Assembly: GCA_035354435.1 (NCBI GenBank)
Contig: DAOQAY010000090.1
Span: forward strand, 1-11,929
Reading direction: 5' to 3'
Length of the DNA: 11,929 bases
DNA from: a bacterium
Lineage (GTDB): Bacteria; UBP6; UBA1177
Below are positions 1,008-8,751 of this stretch, in pieces; within the stretch, counting starts at the first letter, position 1, and each line of letters opens with the position of its first letter. The notes under the pieces are model-generated. The model was given only the letters and a program-made list of their open reading frames with translations, searched no databases and was not told the DNA's origin. The position numbers were made by a program, and so were the translations under genes.

Positions 1008-2525
1008 ATGGCTGAAGTGAGTGGATTTTCATTATTTGCAGTGATACTTGTCGCTGTTTTGGTCCTTGCTCTTTTTGGAACATTCCTCGGTCTTATGAGG
1101 AGATATAAAAGATGTCCTGCTGATAAAGTTCTTGTAGTCTATGGAAAAATAGGTGCAGGTCACAGTTCCCGCTGTATTCACGGCGGTGCGGCGTTTATCT
1201 GGCCGTTATTTCAGGATTATCAGTTCCTTGACCTTATTCCGATGTCGATCGAAGTAAATCTGAGGAATGCACTTTCAAAACAGAATATCAGAGTTGATGT
1301 TCCGTCAAGATTCACTATCGGTATTTCAACCGAAATGGAAGTTATGCAGAACGCTGCGGAAAGACTTCTCGGGCTTTCACAAAAACAGATCACCGATATT
1401 GCAAGTGATATCCTTTTCGGTCAGCTCAGGCTTGTTATCGCAACGATGAATATTGAGGAAATAAACTCAGACCGTGACAAATTTCTTTTAAATGTCAGCA
1501 AAAATGTTGAGGCCGAGCTTTCCAAGATCGGTCTGAAGCTGATAAATGTCAATGTTACAGATATCAAGGATGAGTCGGGCTATATCGAAGCACTTGGAAA
1601 AGAAGCTGCCGCTCAGGCTATAAACGACGCTAAAAAGTCGGTTGCTGAAAAAGACCGTGACGGTGCCATCGGTGAGGCAAATGCCAAACAGGATGAAAGA
1701 GTTCAGGTCGCCAATGCTCTTGCTCTGGCAAAGATCGGTGAAGCGGAAGCTCACAGAAGCGAACGAATCAAGATTTCAGAAGCGGAATCTCTTGCACAGT
1801 CCGGTGAAGCAGACTGGCAGAGAGCGCAGCGTATTTCGATAGCCAGTGCAAATTCAAAAGCAGTTCAGGGCGAAAACACTGCAAAAATAGAAATCGCCAA
1901 TTCCGATGCGACAAGAAGAGAGAAAGAGGCGGAAGCACTTCGTAAGGCAACTGCGGCAGAAAAAGTTGCAACTGCAAAAGCTCTTGAAGAATCATATCAG
2001 GCTGAAAAAGACGCTGAAACCGCCCGTGCTAAAAGAGAGCAGGCAACCCGTGAAGCAGATGTCATCATTCCTGCTGAGATCGGCAAACGAAGAATAGAGA
2101 TTGACGCTGAAGCTGAAGCTGAAAAGACCCGCCGTCTGGCAAGAGGTCAGGCAGATGCGATATTTGCAAAAATGGAAGCTGAAGGCCGCGGAATTTATGA
2201 GATACTTTCAAAACAGGCTGATGGTTTCAAACAGATTGTCGGTGCAGCAGGCGGTGATTCAAAGAGCGCATTCCTTCTTATGATGGCTGATAAGATGCCG
2301 GAACTTGTGAAAATGCAGGTCGAAGCGATAAAGAATATCAAGATCGACAAGGTTACAGTGTGGGATAGCGGCAACGGTGCAGGCGGTGACAAAACATCGA
2401 CTGCGAACTTCATGTCAGGACTTGCAAAGACCATCCCGCCATTGAACGACCTCTTCAACCTTGCCGGAATGAAACTCCCTGAATACCTCGGTCAGGAAAA
2501 AGAAAAAGCGAAAGATCCTGAATAA
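1008..2525 (+). CDS. floT: Flotillin-like SPFH/band-7 protein (FloT/YuaG-like) with a long Ala/Glu/Lys-rich coiled-coil region.
   Basis: 505 aa from the ATG at 1008, with RBS AAGGGGG at 994-1000. The ORF track starts at a TTG 6 nt upstream. There is an N-terminal TM helix. Blocks RYKRCPADKVLVVYG, GGAAFIWPLFQ, NVTDIKDESGYIEALGK, an EA-repeat coiled coil and VTVWDSGNGAGG parallel B. subtilis FloT blocks recalled from memory. It directly follows nfeD. Confidence 0.8.
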   Translation: MAEVSGFSLFAVILVAVLVLALFGTFLGLMRRYKRCPADKVLVVYGKIGAGHSSRCIHGGAAFIWPLFQDYQFLDLIPMSIEVNLRNALSKQNIRVDVPSRFTIGISTEMEVMQNAAERLLGLSQKQITDIASDILFGQLRLVIATMNIEEINSDRDKFLLNVSKNVEAELSKIGLKLINVNVTDIKDESGYIEALGKEAAAQAINDAKKSVAEKDRDGAIGEANAKQDERVQVANALALAKIGEAEAHRSERIKISEAESLAQSGEADWQRAQRISIASANSKAVQGENTAKIEIANSDATRREKEAEALRKATAAEKVATAKALEESYQAEKDAETARAKREQATREADVIIPAEIGKRRIEIDAEAEAEKTRRLARGQADAIFAKMEAEGRGIYEILSKQADGFKQIVGAAGGDSKSAFLLMMADKMPELVKMQVEAIKNIKIDKVTVWDSGNGAGGDKTSTANFMSGLAKTIPPLNDLFNLAGMKLPEYLGQEKEKAKDPE

Positions 2526-3502: not shown

Positions 3503-4573
3503 ATGAAATATTTTATCATTTGTGCGGTGTTTATCCTTTTTACAGCATGTGAGAACAGTGTTAAGATAAAAGGTGACATTGAATCTGTGAAAGATGCGGA
3601 TATTTCAGTAGCCGATGAAGATACTGATTTTGTACAAGTACCTGATACTAATGATGAAAACATTGCCGATGATGCCGTCGATGAGATAGTTGTTCCTGAT
3701 GACGATACGATCGGTGACGGTTGTCTGACCAACGATGACTGCGGGACTGATACATACTGCCTGAAAGATGCCGGCGTGTGTGATGCAGTAACGGTCGGTG
3801 TCTGCACAGTGCGTCCTGAAAACTGTTTTTATACCCGTGCCATTGAGCCTCAATGCGGCTGTGACAATTATACATACAGCAACGAATGCTGGGCCGGATC
3901 TGCCGGAGCAGTGATCGCTCATGCCGGTGAGTGTGAAGGCGATGTTCTGTGCCGGGATTCCTCAGCATGCAGCATGAATGAATACTGTCAGAAAAAACAA
4001 GGAGTTTGCGATATGGGAATGGGTGTGTGCCGTCCAGCCCTTGAAGACTGTAACGGTCAGGAAGACCCGGTAGTCTGCGGATGCGATCTTAAACAGTATA
4101 CAGGTGAATGTCAGGCCCAACTATCCGGAATATCTGTGAAACACGATGGGGAGTGCAACCGCAATGACGATTCGCTTGTCAGGTATTTCTATGCCGATAA
4201 TGCTGAATCAATAGACGGTTATCTGAAAATTATAGTGTCTCCGGTCGAAATAAAGGAATTTTTTGCGATAGACACATTCCAGGAACAGTTCATGGATAGC
4301 GAAAATTCGGTCATTATCACAGTCCGTTTCTACGAGAAAGGCGATATGAATAAAGATTACGCAGAGTTGCAATACAAACTCTCCATGCCGCTGACACTCC
4401 CCATGGGCGTAGGCTTCGGATATGAAGGAAGTTATCTCAAATGGTTCAGCTTCGACGGCGGGGAACTCGGCGACATGGACGGCACAGTGATCACATACGA
4501 TTATATACCGCTTGACAAAGAAAACGAAGTCTCAACCCTCAGTGTGACCGGACTGAACCTGTCGATGAAGTAG
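3503..4573 (+). CDS. Secreted lipoprotein with an acidic linker and two tandem Cys-rich modules, each ending in a Kazal-type-inhibitor-like motif. The C-terminal roughly 140 aa form a Cys-free domain.
   Basis: GGAGG RBS at 3491-3495 and ATG at 3503. The ORF-track start at 3467 lacks an RBS and overlaps the upstream gene. Signal peptide MKYFIICAVFILFTAC has lipobox FTAC. A D/E-rich low-complexity linker follows. CGCDNYTYSNECWAGSAGAVIAHAGEC and CGCDLKQYTGECQAQLSGISVKHDGEC resemble the Kazal CGSDGxTYxNxC...HxGxC motif. Stop TAG at 4571-4573. Confidence 0.65.
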   Translation: MKYFIICAVFILFTACENSVKIKGDIESVKDADISVADEDTDFVQVPDTNDENIADDAVDEIVVPDDDTIGDGCLTNDDCGTDTYCLKDAGVCDAVTVGVCTVRPENCFYTRAIEPQCGCDNYTYSNECWAGSAGAVIAHAGECEGDVLCRDSSACSMNEYCQKKQGVCDMGMGVCRPALEDCNGQEDPVVCGCDLKQYTGECQAQLSGISVKHDGECNRNDDSLVRYFYADNAESIDGYLKIIVSPVEIKEFFAIDTFQEQFMDSENSVIITVRFYEKGDMNKDYAELQYKLSMPLTLPMGVGFGYEGSYLKWFSFDGGELGDMDGTVITYDYIPLDKENEVSTLSVTGLNLSMK

Positions 4574-4660
4574 AGATCCCATATTTCAAACAAATTCATT
4601 TTTTAAATTGATAATCAAACATCAAAGTTTAGAATATCCTGAATTGATTATTGAAAAATT

Positions 4661-4687
4661 GTAGGGGCGAGATTTATCACGCCCTTT
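4661..4687 (+). repeat. Left copy of a 27-bp inverted-repeat pair (GTAGGGGCGAGATTTATCRCGCCCTTT).
   Basis: Its reverse complement recurs at 6676-6702 with 26/27 identity (A/G at one position). Each copy is itself a GC hairpin. Confidence 0.7.
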
Positions 4688-4689
4688 TT
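4661..4689 (+). terminator. Rho-independent terminator of the Kazal-like lipoprotein gene.
   Basis: tAGGGGCG-agatttatca-CGCCCTt forms a 5-7 bp GC stem with a 10-nt loop, followed by TTTTT at 4685-4689. It lies 88 nt after the stop codon. Confidence 0.6.
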
Positions 4690-4772
4690 GAGTGGATGTT
4701 TAGATGTCGGACATTACTGAAGGGTTTGAAAGAATTAAATGAAAATAGGAGTAATGTTGTGGAGAGAAGGTG

Positions 4773-5741
4773 ATGGTAAGCGAAGAACAATCAAAAAGGA
4801 ATGCAAACATTAGCAGAGAATTATTATTAAAATCGGATTATTTTAAAGACATCGTTAGTTTTGCAGAATATTTGAGAAATTCGCCAGTAATGAACGAATT
4901 TTTGAAGTTCAGGCAGGATTTACAAAAATCTATAGAACCCGTTCTGTCAATGATTCAAAAGATTCAAGACACCGCCAGACCTTATTTGTTGAAAGCAATT
5001 CCTACATTGAAATATTTTGTAATTAGAGACAGTTATTTCTATATTTCAGATGATTGTTTTTTAAAAGAATTGGAAGATAGATACTCAAACACTATAGATA
5101 AAAATATTCTTTTAAACTTTATTGAAGAATTTTATTCCAGAAATAATTATGAAGAGATGTGCAGATTAATTGATGAATTGGACAGTTTCGAGCTTATTGA
5201 AAAAAGGATTCACATAATAAAAAGTGTAAAATCTGTGATTTCAAGTGGTTTAAAAGACACGGATATTGCAAATGTTGTGATACCTGTGATTATTTCGCAG
5301 TTAGATGGAGTAGTTAAAGACTTTTACATTAAGCTGGATCCAGAGATTAGTAAAAAGAAGATATTAAAACATAAAAATGTATTAAGAGAAAATCCCCTAA
5401 TAAACGACATTTCCTTTTCTAATTATATAAATATTCTTCATCCTATTTTCTATCTATTTGAGTTTGAAAATGGCATTAAAAACGAAACGAAAAAAAACGA
5501 AAACAATCACGAAGAATATTTTATTGAAAAAGCTACAGAGGAAGAATTAGAAAATTATGTTTTGAATCGAAATGGAATCATGCATGGAGAAAAAGTAGAT
5601 TACGGCAAAAAAATTGAGTTGATAAGAGTGGTTTTATTTTATGATACAGTTGTTAAATCTGTAACAAATGCAATAAATGATATAAATAAGAAAATATTGG
5701 AAAATAATGAAGAAATAAAAATCGTTGAGGGCGAGAAGTGA
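4773..5741 (+). CDS. Hypothetical protein with a C-terminal HEPN-type Rx4H motif. Candidate RNase effector (Abi/toxin-like).
   Basis: About 322 aa. RBS GGAGAG at 4761-4766, ATG at 4773, and an alternative GTG at 4770. Eyeball GC about 30%. Motif LNRNGIMHGE at nt 5568-5585 fits the HEPN R-[NHQ]-x3-H signature. No Walker A/B motif is seen. There is a 1-nt overlap with the downstream gene. Confidence 0.6.
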   Translation: MVSEEQSKRNANISRELLLKSDYFKDIVSFAEYLRNSPVMNEFLKFRQDLQKSIEPVLSMIQKIQDTARPYLLKAIPTLKYFVIRDSYFYISDDCFLKELEDRYSNTIDKNILLNFIEEFYSRNNYEEMCRLIDELDSFELIEKRIHIIKSVKSVISSGLKDTDIANVVIPVIISQLDGVVKDFYIKLDPEISKKKILKHKNVLRENPLINDISFSNYINILHPIFYLFEFENGIKNETKKNENNHEEYFIEKATEEELENYVLNRNGIMHGEKVDYGKKIELIRVVLFYDTVVKSVTNAINDINKKILENNEEIKIVEGEK

Positions 5742-6583
5742 TGATGGAATCAAAGCTTAGAAATTTGTTAAGATTTGAAGCACAGGAAATAAAAATGTCT
5801 TTTGAAAAGGCGAGTATTGAAGGTCAAGGAACGCCGCAAGAAATTGCTGACCGTAGAGAAGCCGCTTTTGTCTCTTCCTTCTTAAAAAAATATTTTCCTT
5901 TTCCGTATAGGATTGAAAAAGGAAATATTATTGATAGCTATAATAACAGAAGCAATTCAATAGATTGTATTATATTAAACCCATCCCATCCTTACACAAT
6001 AGATCCCAAAAATGAAAGAGCTTCAATAATATTTGCTGATGGTGTCGATTGTGCAATAGAAATAAAGCCAGATCTTGCTAATAACCATGAATTAATTAGA
6101 AGTCTAGATCAGATTAGAAGTGTGAAAAAGTTAAGACGCAAAAGAGACGGATTATTGTTGAAAGGCAAATATAATGATCATCAATTGCTCACAGCGAAAA
6201 CAATTCCTTCTTTTATTTTTGCAGATAGAACATATGTCGATTTAAGGTTATTAATTAGTCAAATTGTAGAATACTTTATAAAGGAAAGAGTTCCTTATGA
6301 CGAGCAGTTTGACTATATCGTTATAAACAATAGAGGTCTCATATTCAATTCAAGAAAGGACTTTTATTGTGATCTCAAACCAACTGAAGGAATTTGTTTT
6401 GCTGAAACACAAGAAGATACAATTGCTACATTTTTATTGTTGCTTAACAATCTGCCAAAATCAGAACCAGCAATTAGCGAGAGTGTTTTGAGCTTTTACC
6501 TTGATAATAGTTTGTATTCTGACAAATTGAAGACCTTTCAAGATATTAACGAAAAAATGCATGCTGTTTTAGGTAAACCTTGA
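5741..6583 (+). CDS. Hypothetical protein with a candidate PD-(D/E)xK (restriction-endonuclease-fold) nuclease motif.
   Basis: About 280 aa. The ATG at 5741 overlaps the TGA of gene A (gTGATGatg), with alternative starts at GTG 5738 and ATG 5744. Strand-turn-strand SIIFAD-GVD-CAIEIK has D at 6038-6040 and E-x-K at 6059-6067. It is preceded by GTPQEIADRRE (helix Glu) and SIDCIIL. There is no nucleotidyltransferase (MNT) motif. Eyeball GC about 30%. Confidence 0.6.
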   Translation: MMESKLRNLLRFEAQEIKMSFEKASIEGQGTPQEIADRREAAFVSSFLKKYFPFPYRIEKGNIIDSYNNRSNSIDCIILNPSHPYTIDPKNERASIIFADGVDCAIEIKPDLANNHELIRSLDQIRSVKKLRRKRDGLLLKGKYNDHQLLTAKTIPSFIFADRTYVDLRLLISQIVEYFIKERVPYDEQFDYIVINNRGLIFNSRKDFYCDLKPTEGICFAETQEDTIATFLLLLNNLPKSEPAISESVLSFYLDNSLYSDKLKTFQDINEKMHAVLGKP

Positions 6584-6595
6584 GCGTCCTTCTTT

Positions 6596-6644
6596 TGATT
6601 CACAGCACATTCCTCTATAATTTCCCCATAGCGAATCTTGGAAG
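6596..6644 (+). repeat. Copy 1 of a duplicated junction segment (TGATTCACAG-cacattcctctata-ATTTCCCCATAGCGAATCTTGGAAG). It contains a perfect TATAAT at 6616-6621.
   Basis: It aligns to 6740-6773 (TGATCACACAG-ATTTACCATAGCGAAATCAAGAAG) with a 14-bp indel that removes most of the TATAAT. Possible -35 elements are TTGATT (15-nt spacer) or TTTTGA (17-nt spacer). Confidence 0.5.
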
Positions 6645-6675
6645 AAAAAGGGAAAACAAATCCAAATTCAAAGAG

Positions 6676-6702
6676 AAAGGGCGCGATAAATCTCGCCCCT
6701 AC
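6676..6702 (-). repeat. Right copy of the 27-bp hairpin repeat, in inverted orientation.
   Basis: The minus strand reads GTAGGGGCGAGATTTATCGCGCCCTTT, followed by CTC rather than a T-run. Confidence 0.7.
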
Positions 6703-6714
6703 GGAAATTCAACC

Positions 6715-6736
6715 GCAAATTCTCTTTAGTAAATAA
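6715..6736 (+). repeat. Direct repeat DR1 (GCAAATTCTCTTTAGTAAATAA).
   Basis: An identical 22-mer sits at 7717-7738, which is the 3' end of the dinD-like CDS (...TANSL*). The DR1 reading frame also encodes ...TANSL* but shows no further similarity upstream. Confidence 0.7.
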
Positions 6737-6739
6737 TCT

Positions 6740-6773
6740 GATCACACAGATTTACCATAGCGAAATCAAGAAG
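6740..6773 (+). repeat. Copy 2 of the duplicated junction segment.
   Basis: See copy 1. It lies immediately downstream of DR1 and upstream of the dinD-like promoter region (TTGACT at 6779-6784). Confidence 0.5.
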
Positions 6774-6858
6774 TTAGATTGACTTTTAAGAAGTATTCTA
6801 TATTGTTTTCCATGTTCTGGGCTAAATATATGGCAATATTTGCAACAAGGAGTCTTAA

Positions 6859-7731
6859 ATGGACAGAAGGCTTATCCAGTCAATGAAATCAATATTTGAT
6901 GAACTTACAAAAAAAATAAATGAGGAAAATATTGAGTTCTGGTTCGCCAGAGAGATCATGGAACATCTGGGATATGCTCGCTGGGAAAATTTTCTGACAG
7001 CCATTAACCGTGCGATTTATTCTTGTATATCAACAGGTACAGATCCAGAAGACCATTTTCGTGGAGTAAAGAAAATGGTTAATATCGGTAGTAGCGCAAC
7101 AAGAGACATAGATGATTTTATGCTTACTCGTTACGCATGCTATTTAATTGCTCAAAACGGCGATCCGAGAAAAGAGGAAATTGCTTTTGCTCAAAGTTAT
7201 TTTGCTTTCCAGACAAGAAAACAGGAAATTATTGAAGATAGAATGCAGCTTCAGTTTCGTATTGAAGCCAGGGAAAGACTAAGAGAATCAGAAAAAACAC
7301 TGTCACAGAATATTTATGAAAGAGGTGTTGATGATGATGGTTTTGCTAGAATAAGATCTAAAGGTGATGCAGCACTATTTGGTGGTAATTCAACTCAGAT
7401 GATGAAGGATAAATTCGGGATTACACAGTCACGGCCTCTAGCTGATTTTTTGCCGACATTGACAATTGCTGCAAAAAATCTTGCGACTGAAATGACAAAT
7501 CATAATGTATTGGAAGAGGATTTAAAAGGCGAAGAATCAATAACTGATGAACATGTGCAGAACAATAAAAGTGTCCGCGAAATGTTGGAAAAACGAGGAA
7601 TTCAACCTGAGAGTCTTTCTCCAGAAGAGGATATTAAAAAACTTGAGCGACGAGTAAAATCAGAAGAAAAAAAATTGGCAAGACAATCTGGTAAATTGCC
7701 AAAAAATAAAACCACTGCAAATTCTCTTTAG
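6859..7731 (+). CDS. dinD: DNA-damage-inducible protein D family protein (DinD-like).
   Basis: 290 aa. The blocks EFWFAREIMEHLGYARWENF, HFRGVKKMVNIGS, LTRYACYLIAQNGDP, AQSYFAFQTRKQE and the C-terminal IKKLERRVKSEEKK track my recollection of E. coli DinD (EFWSARELAPLLDYRDWRNF, LSRYACYLVVQNGDP, GQTYFAIQTRRQE, IKQLENSVKITEKK). RBS AAGGAG at 6848-6853. Eyeball GC about 40%. Confidence 0.85.
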   Translation: MDRRLIQSMKSIFDELTKKINEENIEFWFAREIMEHLGYARWENFLTAINRAIYSCISTGTDPEDHFRGVKKMVNIGSSATRDIDDFMLTRYACYLIAQNGDPRKEEIAFAQSYFAFQTRKQEIIEDRMQLQFRIEARERLRESEKTLSQNIYERGVDDDGFARIRSKGDAALFGGNSTQMMKDKFGITQSRPLADFLPTLTIAAKNLATEMTNHNVLEEDLKGEESITDEHVQNNKSVREMLEKRGIQPESLSPEEDIKKLERRVKSEEKKLARQSGKLPKNKTTANSL

Positions 7732-7738
7732 TAAATAA
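7717..7738 (+). repeat. Direct repeat DR2, identical to DR1 and overlapping the dinD-like stop codon.
   Basis: Identical 22-mer, 1002 bp downstream of DR1. Confidence 0.7.
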
Positions 7739-7744
7739 ATTATC

Positions 7745-7768
7745 CATCCTTCGATGAACTCAGGATGA
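7745..7768. terminator. Weak hairpin between the convergent dinD-like and lipoprotein genes. It is a candidate bidirectional terminator.
   Basis: CATCCT at 7745-7750 and AGGATG at 7763-7768 form a 6-bp stem with a 12-nt loop. There is no clear U-tract on either side. Confidence 0.2.
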
Positions 7769-7807
7769 ATAGCAAATTCAGCCACTTATTTTGAAGGTTG
7801 AAAGTTT

Positions 7808-8751
<944 letters not shown>

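What the first reader, a model, noticed from the sequence alone, without database searches (positions are those of the whole stretch)
4661..4687. 27-bp GC hairpin present as an inverted pair (4661-4687 and 6676-6702). The left copy is also a terminator.
GTAGGGGCGAGATTTATC(A/G)CGCCCTTT occurs on the + strand after the lipoprotein gene, followed by T5, where it acts as an intrinsic terminator. It recurs on the - strand 2 kb downstream with no T-run and no convergent gene. This inverted pair brackets exactly the compositionally foreign operon. Three explanations are possible. They may be terminal inverted repeats of a non-autonomous element. They may be members of a REP/BIME-like genome-wide palindrome family that serves as an insertion or recombination hotspot. 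Or the terminator may have been duplicated during insertion.
Basis: seen in the sequence. Interest (0 to 1): 0.55.

Follow-up and report, generated by a model that had tools for sequence, protein, structure and literature searches.

The report
GTAG-type REP hairpins flanking inserted genes
The two hairpins are copies of a known, very widespread bacterial repeat (a GTAG-tagged REP, spread by a RAYT transposase) that was at this spot before a foreign, defence-like two-gene cassette came to lie between them, so the finding is real but ordinary.

Summary
The 27-mer lies at 4661-4687 (+) and 6676-6702 (-), the copies are 26/27 identical, and none is expected by chance.

It is a GTAG-tagged REP: an unpaired 5' GTAG, a 9-bp stem with three G-C pairs at its foot and one internal A.A or A.G mismatch, and a TT loop.
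- at least 120 stretches in genomes of many phyla
- at least 119 metagenome contigs

The copies found are mostly intergenic and often form head-to-head dimers. Stem positions covary. In 12 of 239 loci a RAYT (Y1/HUH transposase) gene lies within or beside the copies.

Three related genomes settle the local history:
- L249 has the same two REP positions about 120 bp apart, with no cassette, next to a decayed RAYT gene.
- L260 has a single REP between the convergent flanking genes.
- L250 has a truncated REP.

So the pair is independent of the AT-rich cassette (an unknown 322-aa protein plus a DUF6602 nuclease). The hairpins are not the cassette's ends, and they are not a terminator duplicated on insertion. 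A terminator role for the left copy is plausible but untested. This is a new member of a known kind.

The parts
4661..4684 (+). Left REP: unpaired GTAG tag, then stem GGGCGAGAT / ATCACGCCC with an internal A.A mismatch and a TT loop. It starts 88 nt after the stop of the lipoprotein gene.
   Evidence: Same position as the REP GTAGGGGCGACATTCATGACGCCC in relative L249.
4685..4689 (+). T5 run after the left REP. Together with the hairpin it looks like an intrinsic terminator.
   Evidence: The hairpin is -11.1 kcal/mol as RNA. The consensus terminator scan did not call it. About 20% of family copies have such a T-rich tail.
6679..6702 (-). Right REP, GTAGGGGCGAGATTTATCGCGCCC on the - strand, with an A.G mismatch. 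This is the commonest variant of the subfamily. It starts 96 nt after the stop of the cassette operon.
   Evidence: (100 of 138 copies are A..G). Identical to the REP at 1954-1977 (-) of L249.
6620..6678 (.). Conserved non-coding stretch attached to the right REP. It is the pre-existing spacer of the REP pair, and the right edge of the inserted cassette lies just to its left.
   Evidence: blastn: window 6620-6692 matches L249 1881-1952 at 90% identity.
4773..5741 (+). Cargo gene 1: a 322-aa protein of unknown family, AT-rich. Across 54 family members an Rx4H motif (R266...H271, then G272) is invariant.
   Evidence: Searches found no family. Only 3 homologues at 45-47% identity. Two of them lie between hsdS and hsdR of type I R-M operons. 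A profile search finds 312 distant relatives.
5741..6583 (+). Cargo gene 2: a DUF6602, PD-(D/E)xK / NucC-like nuclease of 280 aa.
   Evidence: Pfam DUF6602, 2.7e-18. PADLOC PD_DExK 4.5e-16 and NucC effector 6.5e-16. More than 290 homologues; the nearest, at 60-69% identity, sit in plasmid- or phage-like contexts without REPs.
6859..7731 (+). dinD-like gene. It occupies the position where relative L249 has a decayed RAYT gene behind the same upstream sequence.
   Evidence: NCBIfam DNA damage-inducible protein D, 4e-110. PADLOC PDC-S13, 1e-115. Window 6745-6800 aligns with L249 1990-2040.
6706..6736 (+). First copy of a 31-nt direct repeat, with a 22-nt exact core (GCAAATTCTCTTTAGTAAATAA). It is probably a relic of the 3' end of a dinD-like gene.
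   Evidence: (D4, D8). Relative L250 has a single copy directly after a truncated REP.
7708..7738 (+). Second copy of the direct repeat. It overlaps the last codons and the stop of the dinD-like gene (KTTANSL*).
4574..7806 (.). The whole variable (accessory) region between the convergent core genes, the lipoprotein gene and the DUF7478 collagen-like gene.
   Evidence: In L260 these 3.2 kb are replaced by 42 bp that hold one REP. In L249 they are replaced by a REP cluster plus a RAYT pseudogene.

Best explanation
Both hairpins are copies of a GTAG-tagged REP (repetitive extragenic palindrome). The type matches the 'canonical long REP' described for TnpA_REP/RAYT subclass 2.4.

How such elements work is established knowledge, not tested here. 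As single-stranded DNA the palindrome folds into a hairpin. A Y1/HUH endonuclease (RAYT) binds the hairpin, reads the unpaired GTAG, and cuts and rejoins the DNA. REPs and inverted REP doublets (REPINs) spread in this way to gaps between genes, mostly behind genes.

Shown here: the two window copies correspond to a head-to-head REP pair, with the GTAG tags outward, that lies about 120 bp apart beside a decayed RAYT gene in a related genome. That arrangement is a REPtron.

Inferred: in the window's lineage a horizontally acquired, AT-rich, defence-like two-gene cassette came to lie between the two partners. A dinD-like gene took the place of the RAYT gene. The REPs are older residents of this gap, not the ends of the cassette.

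Also inferred: today each REP sits about 90 nt behind a + strand transcription unit. There it probably serves as a 3'-end RNA hairpin. The left copy, with its T5, would act as a terminator or attenuator for the lipoprotein gene. The right copy would act as a 3' stabiliser for the cassette transcript.
For: Anatomy:
- The hairpin leaves GTAG unpaired.
- In 146 genome hits, found with a pattern that did not specify the two bases 5' of AGGGG, 135 have GT there.
- The variable stem pair is Watson-Crick in 127 of 146 (81 C..G, 38 T..A, 8 G..C) and T..G in 14.
- CTAC follows in only 3.
- In 111 further family members the four inner stem pairs are 87-98% Watson-Crick, with several pair types each.

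Dispersal:
- At least 120 genome stretches labelled with many phyla.
- At least 119 metagenome contigs with GC 0.32-0.70.
- Several contigs come from the same MAG.
- 107 of 146 copies lie outside my crude ORF calls. Only 6 of the 86 that have a called gene on both sides lie between divergent genes.
- The 150 neighbouring genes scanned are an unrelated mix of housekeeping genes.

Dimers: 81 head-to-head dimers, with a spacer mode of 22-26 nt.

RAYT link:
- 12 of 239 loci carry a RAYT homologue. In eight of them family REPs flank the gene closely: 18-135 nt upstream of the start in six, 1-105 nt downstream in six, both sides in four. REPs also lie in frame inside the gene.
- This matches the published description of subclass 2.4 (PMC6006769) and of GTAG REPs (PMC3733652).

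Local history:
- L249: left REP, then 120 bp, then a right REP that is identical and has the same flanks, then a RAYT pseudogene. The reconstructed protein scores Pfam Y1_Tnp 28.4 bits (cut-off 23) and NCBIfam REP_Tyr_transpos E = 6e-14.
- L260: a single REP in a 42-bp gap.
- L250: a truncated REP.

Cargo: both genes are foreign and move without REPs elsewhere.
Against: - Only about 25 kb of the window's own genome could be read, and it holds just these two copies and no RAYT. Multi-copy status in this genome is therefore not shown.
- The left REP of L249 is a different subtype (3 differences, one of them a compensatory pair). It could be an independent arrival at the same site rather than an orthologue.
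- A 2-kb spacing is far outside the 20-100 bp usual for REP dimers.
- The direction of the event is inferred from base composition only. It could be insertion in the window lineage or loss in L249.
- Terminator and stabiliser roles rest on sequence alone, and the consensus terminator scan did not call the left copy.
- Phylum labels come from MAG bins, which can be contaminated.
Confidence: 0.85

Rival explanations
1. The REP cluster is more than a bystander. It is an active recombination or integration hotspot that promoted capture and exchange of the accessory genes. Possible routes are RAYT cleavage, hairpin-induced breaks or slippage, or REP-targeting elements. This adds to the best explanation rather than excluding it.
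For: - Four different alleles occupy the same REP-containing gap among relatives whose flanks are 75-79% identical in DNA.
- The breakpoint in L250 lies inside the right REP, at window 6692/6693.
- The cassette's right edge abuts the conserved REP spacer.
- The literature notes DNA inserted between REP dimer partners (PMC3733652).
- From my memory, not checked here: REPs are known targets of some insertion sequences.
Against: - There is no recombinase, IS or integrase in the region.
- No target-site duplication is seen at the cassette edges.
- Gaps between convergent genes tolerate insertions anyway.
- The sample is only four alleles.
Confidence: 0.3
2. The two hairpins are the terminal inverted repeats of a non-autonomous composite element (REP-cargo-REP). 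A RAYT supplied in trans moves it as a unit, and that is how the cassette arrived.
For: - The tags point outward, as in REPINs and around RAYT genes.
- The cargo is compositionally foreign.
Against: - The pair exists without cargo in L249.
- All 10 contigs that encode the identical lipoprotein (8 with DNA read here) carry the cassette in the same context.
- The closest homologues of both cargo genes lie in other contexts with no GTAG hairpin.
- REPtrons are reported not to transpose as units (PMC6006769).
- The accessory region extends beyond the right REP.
Confidence: 0.05
3. A local terminator hairpin was duplicated when the cassette was inserted. The pair would then be a by-product of that single event and unrelated to any genome-wide family.
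For: - The two copies are 26/27 identical.
- The left one is followed by T5.
Against: - The same 24-mer occurs in hundreds of unrelated contigs.
- Both REP positions are occupied in L249, which lacks the cassette.
- The copies are inverted, not direct.
Confidence: 0.02

Closest known systems
GTAG-tagged REPs and REPINs mobilised by RAYTs (Nunvar 2010, PMC2817692; Bertels & Rainey 2011, PMC3116915; Di Nocera 2013, PMC3733652)
   Same: - An unpaired 5' GTAG followed by a GC-rich imperfect palindrome.
- A short TT loop (the published consensus is 'TY').
- Compensatory stem variants and G-T pairs.
- Head-to-head dimers with the tags outward.
- Location behind genes and between convergent or same-direction genes.
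- RAYT genes flanked by the same repeat.
   Different: - In the window the two partners are 1991 bp apart and enclose two genes, instead of a 20-100 bp spacer.
- The copy number in the window's own genome is unknown.
- This exact sequence family (GTAGGGGCG-NGATTTATCN-CGCCC) was not found by name or by sequence in the searchable literature.
TnpA_REP (Y1/HUH) subclass 2.4 REPtrons (Quentin et al. 2018, PMC6006769)
   Same: - A canonical long REP with three G-C pairs at the foot of the stem.
- REP copies inserted in frame inside the transposase gene, between the HuH and Tyr motifs.
- A patchy, multi-phylum distribution.
I see all three in L161, L238, L166, L226, L052 and L249.
   Different: - I did not place these RAYTs in that paper's tree, so the subclass assignment rests on its described features only.
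- The window itself has no RAYT. At the RAYT position it has a dinD-like gene.
E. coli REP/BIME elements as 3'-end RNA hairpins (transcription attenuation, mRNA stabilisation)
   Same: A REP hairpin lies shortly after a stop codon. The left copy adds a U-run, so it looks like a terminator.
   Different: No expression data exist here. The sequence is unrelated to the E. coli Y/Z REPs apart from the GTAG-plus-palindrome plan. This comparison rests on my general knowledge and on the reviews within PMC3733652.
IS200/IS605 ends and MITEs
   Same: Small hairpin-forming repeats that are recognised by Y1 transposases or that flank a mobile unit.
   Different: - IS200/IS605 hairpins lie on the same strand at both ends, next to a transposase gene.
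- MITEs move as whole units with target duplications.
- Neither is seen here: there is no transposase, no duplication and no second copy of the unit.

Membership tests
GTAG-type REP / REPIN-RAYT system | Conserved unpaired 5' GT[AG]G tetranucleotide at the foot of the hairpin | tested here: met
   Both window copies start with GTAG, which stays unpaired in the folds. GT precedes AGGGG in 135 of 146 hits although the pattern did not specify it; 6% is expected by chance.
GTAG-type REP / REPIN-RAYT system | A 20-40 bp imperfect palindrome whose structure, rather than sequence, is conserved (compensatory changes) | tested here: met
   - 24-nt core with a 9-bp stem.
- The variable pair is C..G 81, T..A 38, G..C 8 and T..G 14 of 146.
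- The inner pairs are 87-98% Watson-Crick with 3-4 pair types each in 111 independent members.
- The window-versus-L249 left REP shows a G-C to C-G flip.
GTAG-type REP / REPIN-RAYT system | Many dispersed copies within one genome, in intergenic DNA | tested here: inconclusive
   This is met for the family: several contigs of the same MAG carry copies, copies are mostly intergenic, and neighbours are unrelated. For the window's own genome only about 25 kb could be read, and it holds 2 copies.
GTAG-type REP / REPIN-RAYT system | Frequent inverted dimers (HH/TT; REPIN/BIME) | tested here: met
   There are 81 HH dimers in 239 loci, with a spacer mode of 22-26 nt. The syntenic pair in L249 is 120 bp apart. 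The window pair has HH orientation but is 1991 bp apart.
GTAG-type REP / REPIN-RAYT system | A cognate RAYT (Y1/HUH) gene flanked by the same REPs (REPtron) | tested here: met
   - 12 of 239 loci carry a RAYT homologue, and in eight the gene is closely flanked by family REPs: 18-135 nt upstream in six, 1-105 nt downstream in six.
- L249 has a RAYT pseudogene at the syntenic site. Its reconstructed protein scores Pfam Y1_Tnp 28.4 bits (above the cut-off of 23). It scores NCBIfam REP_Tyr_transpos 52 bits, which is below the equivalog cut-off of 80.
- There is no RAYT in the window itself.
GTAG-type REP / REPIN-RAYT system | RAYT binds and cleaves the REP hairpin; the REPs are mobile | not testable with these tools
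   This needs biochemistry or population data. It is inferred from the E. coli TnpA_REP work cited in PMC6006769 and PMC3479197.
Composite or non-autonomous transposon with terminal inverted repeats | The repeats mark the ends of a unit that recurs elsewhere with its cargo, usually with a target-site duplication | tested here: not met
   - There is an empty-site allele that has both REPs.
- The cassette is always in one context.
- Cargo homologues elsewhere lack the hairpins.
- No duplication is seen at the edges.
Intrinsic (Rho-independent) terminator, left copy only | A GC-rich stem-loop followed at once by a U-run, downstream of a gene | tested here: inconclusive
   The hairpin is -11.1 kcal/mol and is followed by U5, 88 nt after the stop codon. 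The stem has an internal mismatch and the consensus scan did not report it. There are no transcript data.
Known RNA families (Rfam) | A match to a curated covariance model | tested here: not met
   No Rfam family reaches its gathering score anywhere in the window.

The most novel reading that the evidence does not exclude
REP/REPtron sites may act as capture points for defence genes. At this gap a RAYT gene has been replaced by a dinD-like (PDC-S13) gene behind the same upstream sequence. A cassette of an Rx4H-motif protein plus a PD-(D/E)xK nuclease sits between the partners of a REP dimer. A third allele breaks inside the REP. If REP hairpins or RAYT activity drive such exchanges, REP clusters would seed small defence islets in lineages that lack classical integrases at these sites.
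Probability: 0.12. Interest if true: 0.6.

Novelty: new member of a known kind. Interest (0 to 1): 0.3.

Why it matters
It explains a striking inverted repeat as a member of the known REP/RAYT world. It also shows, with an empty-site allele, that the repeat pair is independent of the foreign genes it brackets.

Three practical points follow:
- This 24-nt GTAG hairpin is very common in metagenomes of many phyla. It produces spurious peptide strings such as GRDKSRPY, GAINRAPT and VGARFIAP in ORF calls, so recognising it avoids misannotation.
- The gap between the lipoprotein gene and the DUF7478 gene is a variable spot where defence-like genes come and go.
- The unknown 322-aa protein belongs to an uncharacterised family. 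Two of its three close homologues are embedded in type I R-M operons, which may deserve its own study.

Tried and rejected
- **Viral contigs:** a scan for the hairpin gave 0 hits.
- **Rfam:** nothing in the whole window.
- **Literature by sequence:** a search for the sequence strings or the peptide strings found no bacterial REP paper. The supplements of PMC3733652 do not contain the motif, and its family consensus sequences are in a figure that is not held.
- **Plasmids:** the collection gave only a related but distinct REPIN in Pantoea megaplasmids.
- **Non-syntenic homologues:** lipoprotein homologues P0007 and P0010 sit in the dcw cell-division cluster, so they say nothing about this site.
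- **Shared sequence:** none of the 120 genome loci shares anything with the window apart from the hairpin.
- **Cassette edges:** I looked for a split second REP or a target duplication at the edges. The similarities were too weak to use.
- **Structure of the 322-aa protein:** the prediction failed (pLDDT 49.6). Pfam, NCBIfam and PADLOC found nothing for it, PHROGs gave one unknown-function family (phrog_28904, 2.5e-06), and a PDB profile search gave only coiled-coil noise. The HEPN idea therefore rests only on the invariant Rx4H motif.
- **Copy number in the source genome:** this could not be measured.

Full report
**1. Observation**

It lies at 4661-4687 on the + strand (GTAGGGGCGAGATTTATCACGCCCTTT) and at 6676-6702 on the - strand (GTAGGGGCGAGATTTATCGCGCCCTTT). 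Allowing up to 3 mismatches there are no other matches, and none of 200 shuffles gave any. It is the longest inverted repeat in the window. Each copy folds into a hairpin that leaves the first four bases unpaired. T5 follows the left copy. The DNA between the copies has GC 0.25-0.33, against 0.42-0.50 to the left.

**2. Surroundings**

From left to right the window holds:
- an SPFH protein gene and a PLP-dependent enzyme gene;
- a Cys-rich lipoprotein gene that ends at 4573;
- the left hairpin;
- an unknown gene for a 322-aa protein (4773-5741);
- a DUF6602 / NucC-like PD-(D/E)xK nuclease gene (5741-6583);
- the right hairpin;
- a dinD-like gene (6859-7731; NCBIfam 4e-110, PADLOC PDC-S13 1e-115);
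- a collagen-like DUF7478 lipoprotein gene on the - strand;
- groES and groEL.

The window comes from an unclassified MAG, GCA_035403905.1. The same sequence occurs in several metagenome assemblies.

**3. What the hairpin is**

I scanned one genome per species with AGGGGCGNGATTTATCNCGCCC. The MAGs are labelled Chloroflexota, Gallionella, Deltaproteobacteria, Oscillospiraceae, Bacteroidales, Omnitrophota, CPR groups, Armatimonadota, Nitrospirae, WOR-3 and others. These loci share nothing with the window apart from the hairpin.

The 146 copies in those stretches have these features:
- The two bases before the pattern, which I had left free, are GT in 135.
- The free stem pair is C..G in 81, T..A in 38, G..C in 8 and T..G in 14.
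- The 3' side is variable, and CTAC follows in only 3.
- In 111 further family members in the same loci, which the patterns did not select, the four inner stem pairs are 87-98% Watson-Crick with several pair types each.

The conserved object is therefore an unpaired GTAG tag plus a hairpin whose structure is maintained.

N was G in 100 copies, A in 23, T in 9 and C in 6. The mismatched forms in the window (A.G on the right, A.A on the left) are thus the usual forms of this subfamily, not decay products.

Other properties of the copies:
- 107 of 146 lie outside my crude ORF calls.
- Of the 86 that have a called gene on both sides, only 6 lie between divergent genes.
- Their 150 neighbouring genes are an unrelated mix of housekeeping genes.
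- There are 81 head-to-head dimers, tags outward, with a spacer mode of 22-26 nt.

**4. Link to the transposase**

A Y1/HUH transposase gene of the RAYT type is present in 12 of the 239 loci. In eight of them copies of this family flank the gene closely: 18-135 nt upstream of the start in six, 1-105 nt downstream in six, and on both sides in four. L016 has a dimer on each side. In L161, L238, L166, L226, L052 and L249, REP copies also lie in frame inside the gene, between the HUH motif and the tyrosine helix.

All of this matches published descriptions:
- GTAG-tagged REPs have an unpaired tag, 6-13 bp stems, short 'TY' loops, compensatory variants and HH dimers. They sit behind genes and have been reported with DNA inserted between dimer partners (PMC3733652).
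- TnpA_REP subclass 2.4 has long REPs with three G-C pairs at the stem foot, in-frame REP insertions between HuH and Y, a patchy multi-phylum distribution, and REPtrons that do not move as units (PMC6006769).

**5. Local history**

Homologues of the lipoprotein led to three syntenic relatives whose flanks are 75-79% identical in DNA.

- **L249.** After the lipoprotein stop comes a REP, GTAGGGGCGACATTCATGACGCCC, at the position of the window's left copy. It keeps the A.A mismatch and has a G-C to C-G flip. A second GTAG hairpin follows. Then comes a stretch 90% identical to window 6620-6692, ending in a REP identical to the window's right copy. The two REPs are about 120 bp apart and there is no cassette. 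Downstream, behind a sequence that aligns with the region upstream of the window's dinD-like gene, lies a RAYT gene with REP sequences inside its reading frame. A 7-nt insertion in one of them breaks the frame. The reconstructed protein scores Pfam Y1_Tnp 28.4 bits (cut-off 23) and NCBIfam REP-associated tyrosine transposase E = 6e-14, which is below the equivalog cut-off.
- **L260.** The convergent lipoprotein and DUF7478 genes are 42 bp apart, and the gap holds a single REP.
- **L250.** Only the last 10 nt of the right REP remain, and they join the same downstream sequence.

REPs are therefore the constant residents of this gap, and the 3.2 kb at 4574-7806 are variable.

**6. The cargo**

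The DUF6602 nuclease has more than 290 homologues. The nearest, at 60-69% identity, sit next to primase, methylase, ParAB or RadC genes, without the 322-aa partner and without GTAG hairpins.

The 322-aa protein has three close homologues. The two with readable context lie between hsdS and hsdR of type I restriction-modification operons. A profile search finds 312 distant relatives, and an Rx4H motif is invariant across 54 aligned members. No known domain or structure matched.

The cassette is thus a horizontally acquired, defence-like module that does not travel with REPs.

**7. Verdict on mechanisms**

- The best explanation (0.85) is a pre-existing GTAG-type REP pair, part of a degraded REPtron locus, with foreign genes now between and beside the partners.
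- Terminal repeats of a cargo element (0.05) are contradicted by the L249 allele and by the wide spread of the family.
- A terminator duplicated on insertion (0.02) is contradicted by the same evidence.
- An active hotspot role for the REPs (0.3, as an addition to the best explanation) is suggested by the four alleles and by a breakpoint inside a REP. It is not shown.
- The roles as terminator (left copy) and as 3' stabiliser (right copy) are inferred from position and sequence only. About one in five family copies has a T-rich tail.

**8. Limits**

- The copy number and the presence of a RAYT in the window's own genome could not be measured.
- Phylum labels come from MAG bins.
- The subclass assignment follows described features, not a tree.

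**9. Novelty**

This is a new member of a known kind. Interest is modest: the cross-phylum spread and the in-gene REPs are already published, and the REP-flanked cassette is the kind of case the literature anticipates.

Noticed in passing
window 6706-6736 and 7708-7738; L250 2287-2319: A 31-nt direct repeat, with a 22-nt exact core GCAAATTCTCTTTAGTAAATAA, flanks the dinD-like gene. The second copy is the gene's own 3' end. Relative L250 has a single copy and no dinD. This looks like gain or loss of the gene through this repeat, or a relic of an earlier dinD copy.
   Followed up: partly
window 4773-5741; L261 6001-6879; L262 3127-4032: The unknown 322-aa protein has only three close homologues. 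Two of them are embedded between hsdS and hsdR of type I R-M operons. Across 54 distant relatives R145, P171, G179 and an Rx4H-G motif (R266, H271, G272) are invariant. This may be a HEPN-like RNase, but no Pfam, PDB or structure-model support was obtained.
   Followed up: partly
L161, L238, L166, L226, L052, L249 (RAYT genes): REP copies lie in frame inside the RAYT genes, between the HUH motif and the tyrosine helix. They encode strings such as VGAQFIAP, GAINRAPT and GRDKSRPY. This is already described for TnpA_REP subclass 2.4 (PMC6006769). It explains such odd peptide strings in ORF calls that run across REP copies.
   Followed up: yes
L249 2130-2697: In the syntenic relative, a RAYT pseudogene sits where the window has the dinD-like gene. 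It lies behind the same upstream sequence, and its 3' end overlaps the end of the convergent DUF7478 gene by 13 nt. A 7-nt insertion in an internal REP breaks the reading frame.
   Followed up: yes
L250 2260-2283 versus window 6692/6693: One allele has a breakpoint inside the right REP. Only TCGCCCCTAC is left, which hints that the hairpin itself takes part in deletions or rearrangements.
   Followed up: partly
window 8367-8564 (within the gene at 7808-8641, - strand): A 9-nt tandem repeat array encodes GNT/GDT collagen-like repeats in the DUF7478 lipoprotein. The called protein is 274 or 277 aa where complete and 243 aa in L245, which has a longer gap before groES. This suggests repeat-number variation, or it may be an assembly artefact.
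   Followed up: no
L263 1501-1571 (Pantoea sp. At-9b plasmid NC_014838.1): A cultured Pantoea strain carries a related REPIN, GTAGCGGCGCGATTTATCGCGCG, a 25-nt spacer, then the inverted copy. The search reports 11 matching places on this 794-kb megaplasmid. It has the same inner stem-loop as the window family but a different stem foot.
   Followed up: partly
L007, L013, L038, L071, L099, L110 and others: Many copies form heterodimers with a second REP subtype, GGGCGCAATGAATTGCGCCCCTAC, only 1-8 nt away. This recalls the Y/Z pairing of E. coli BIMEs.
   Followed up: no
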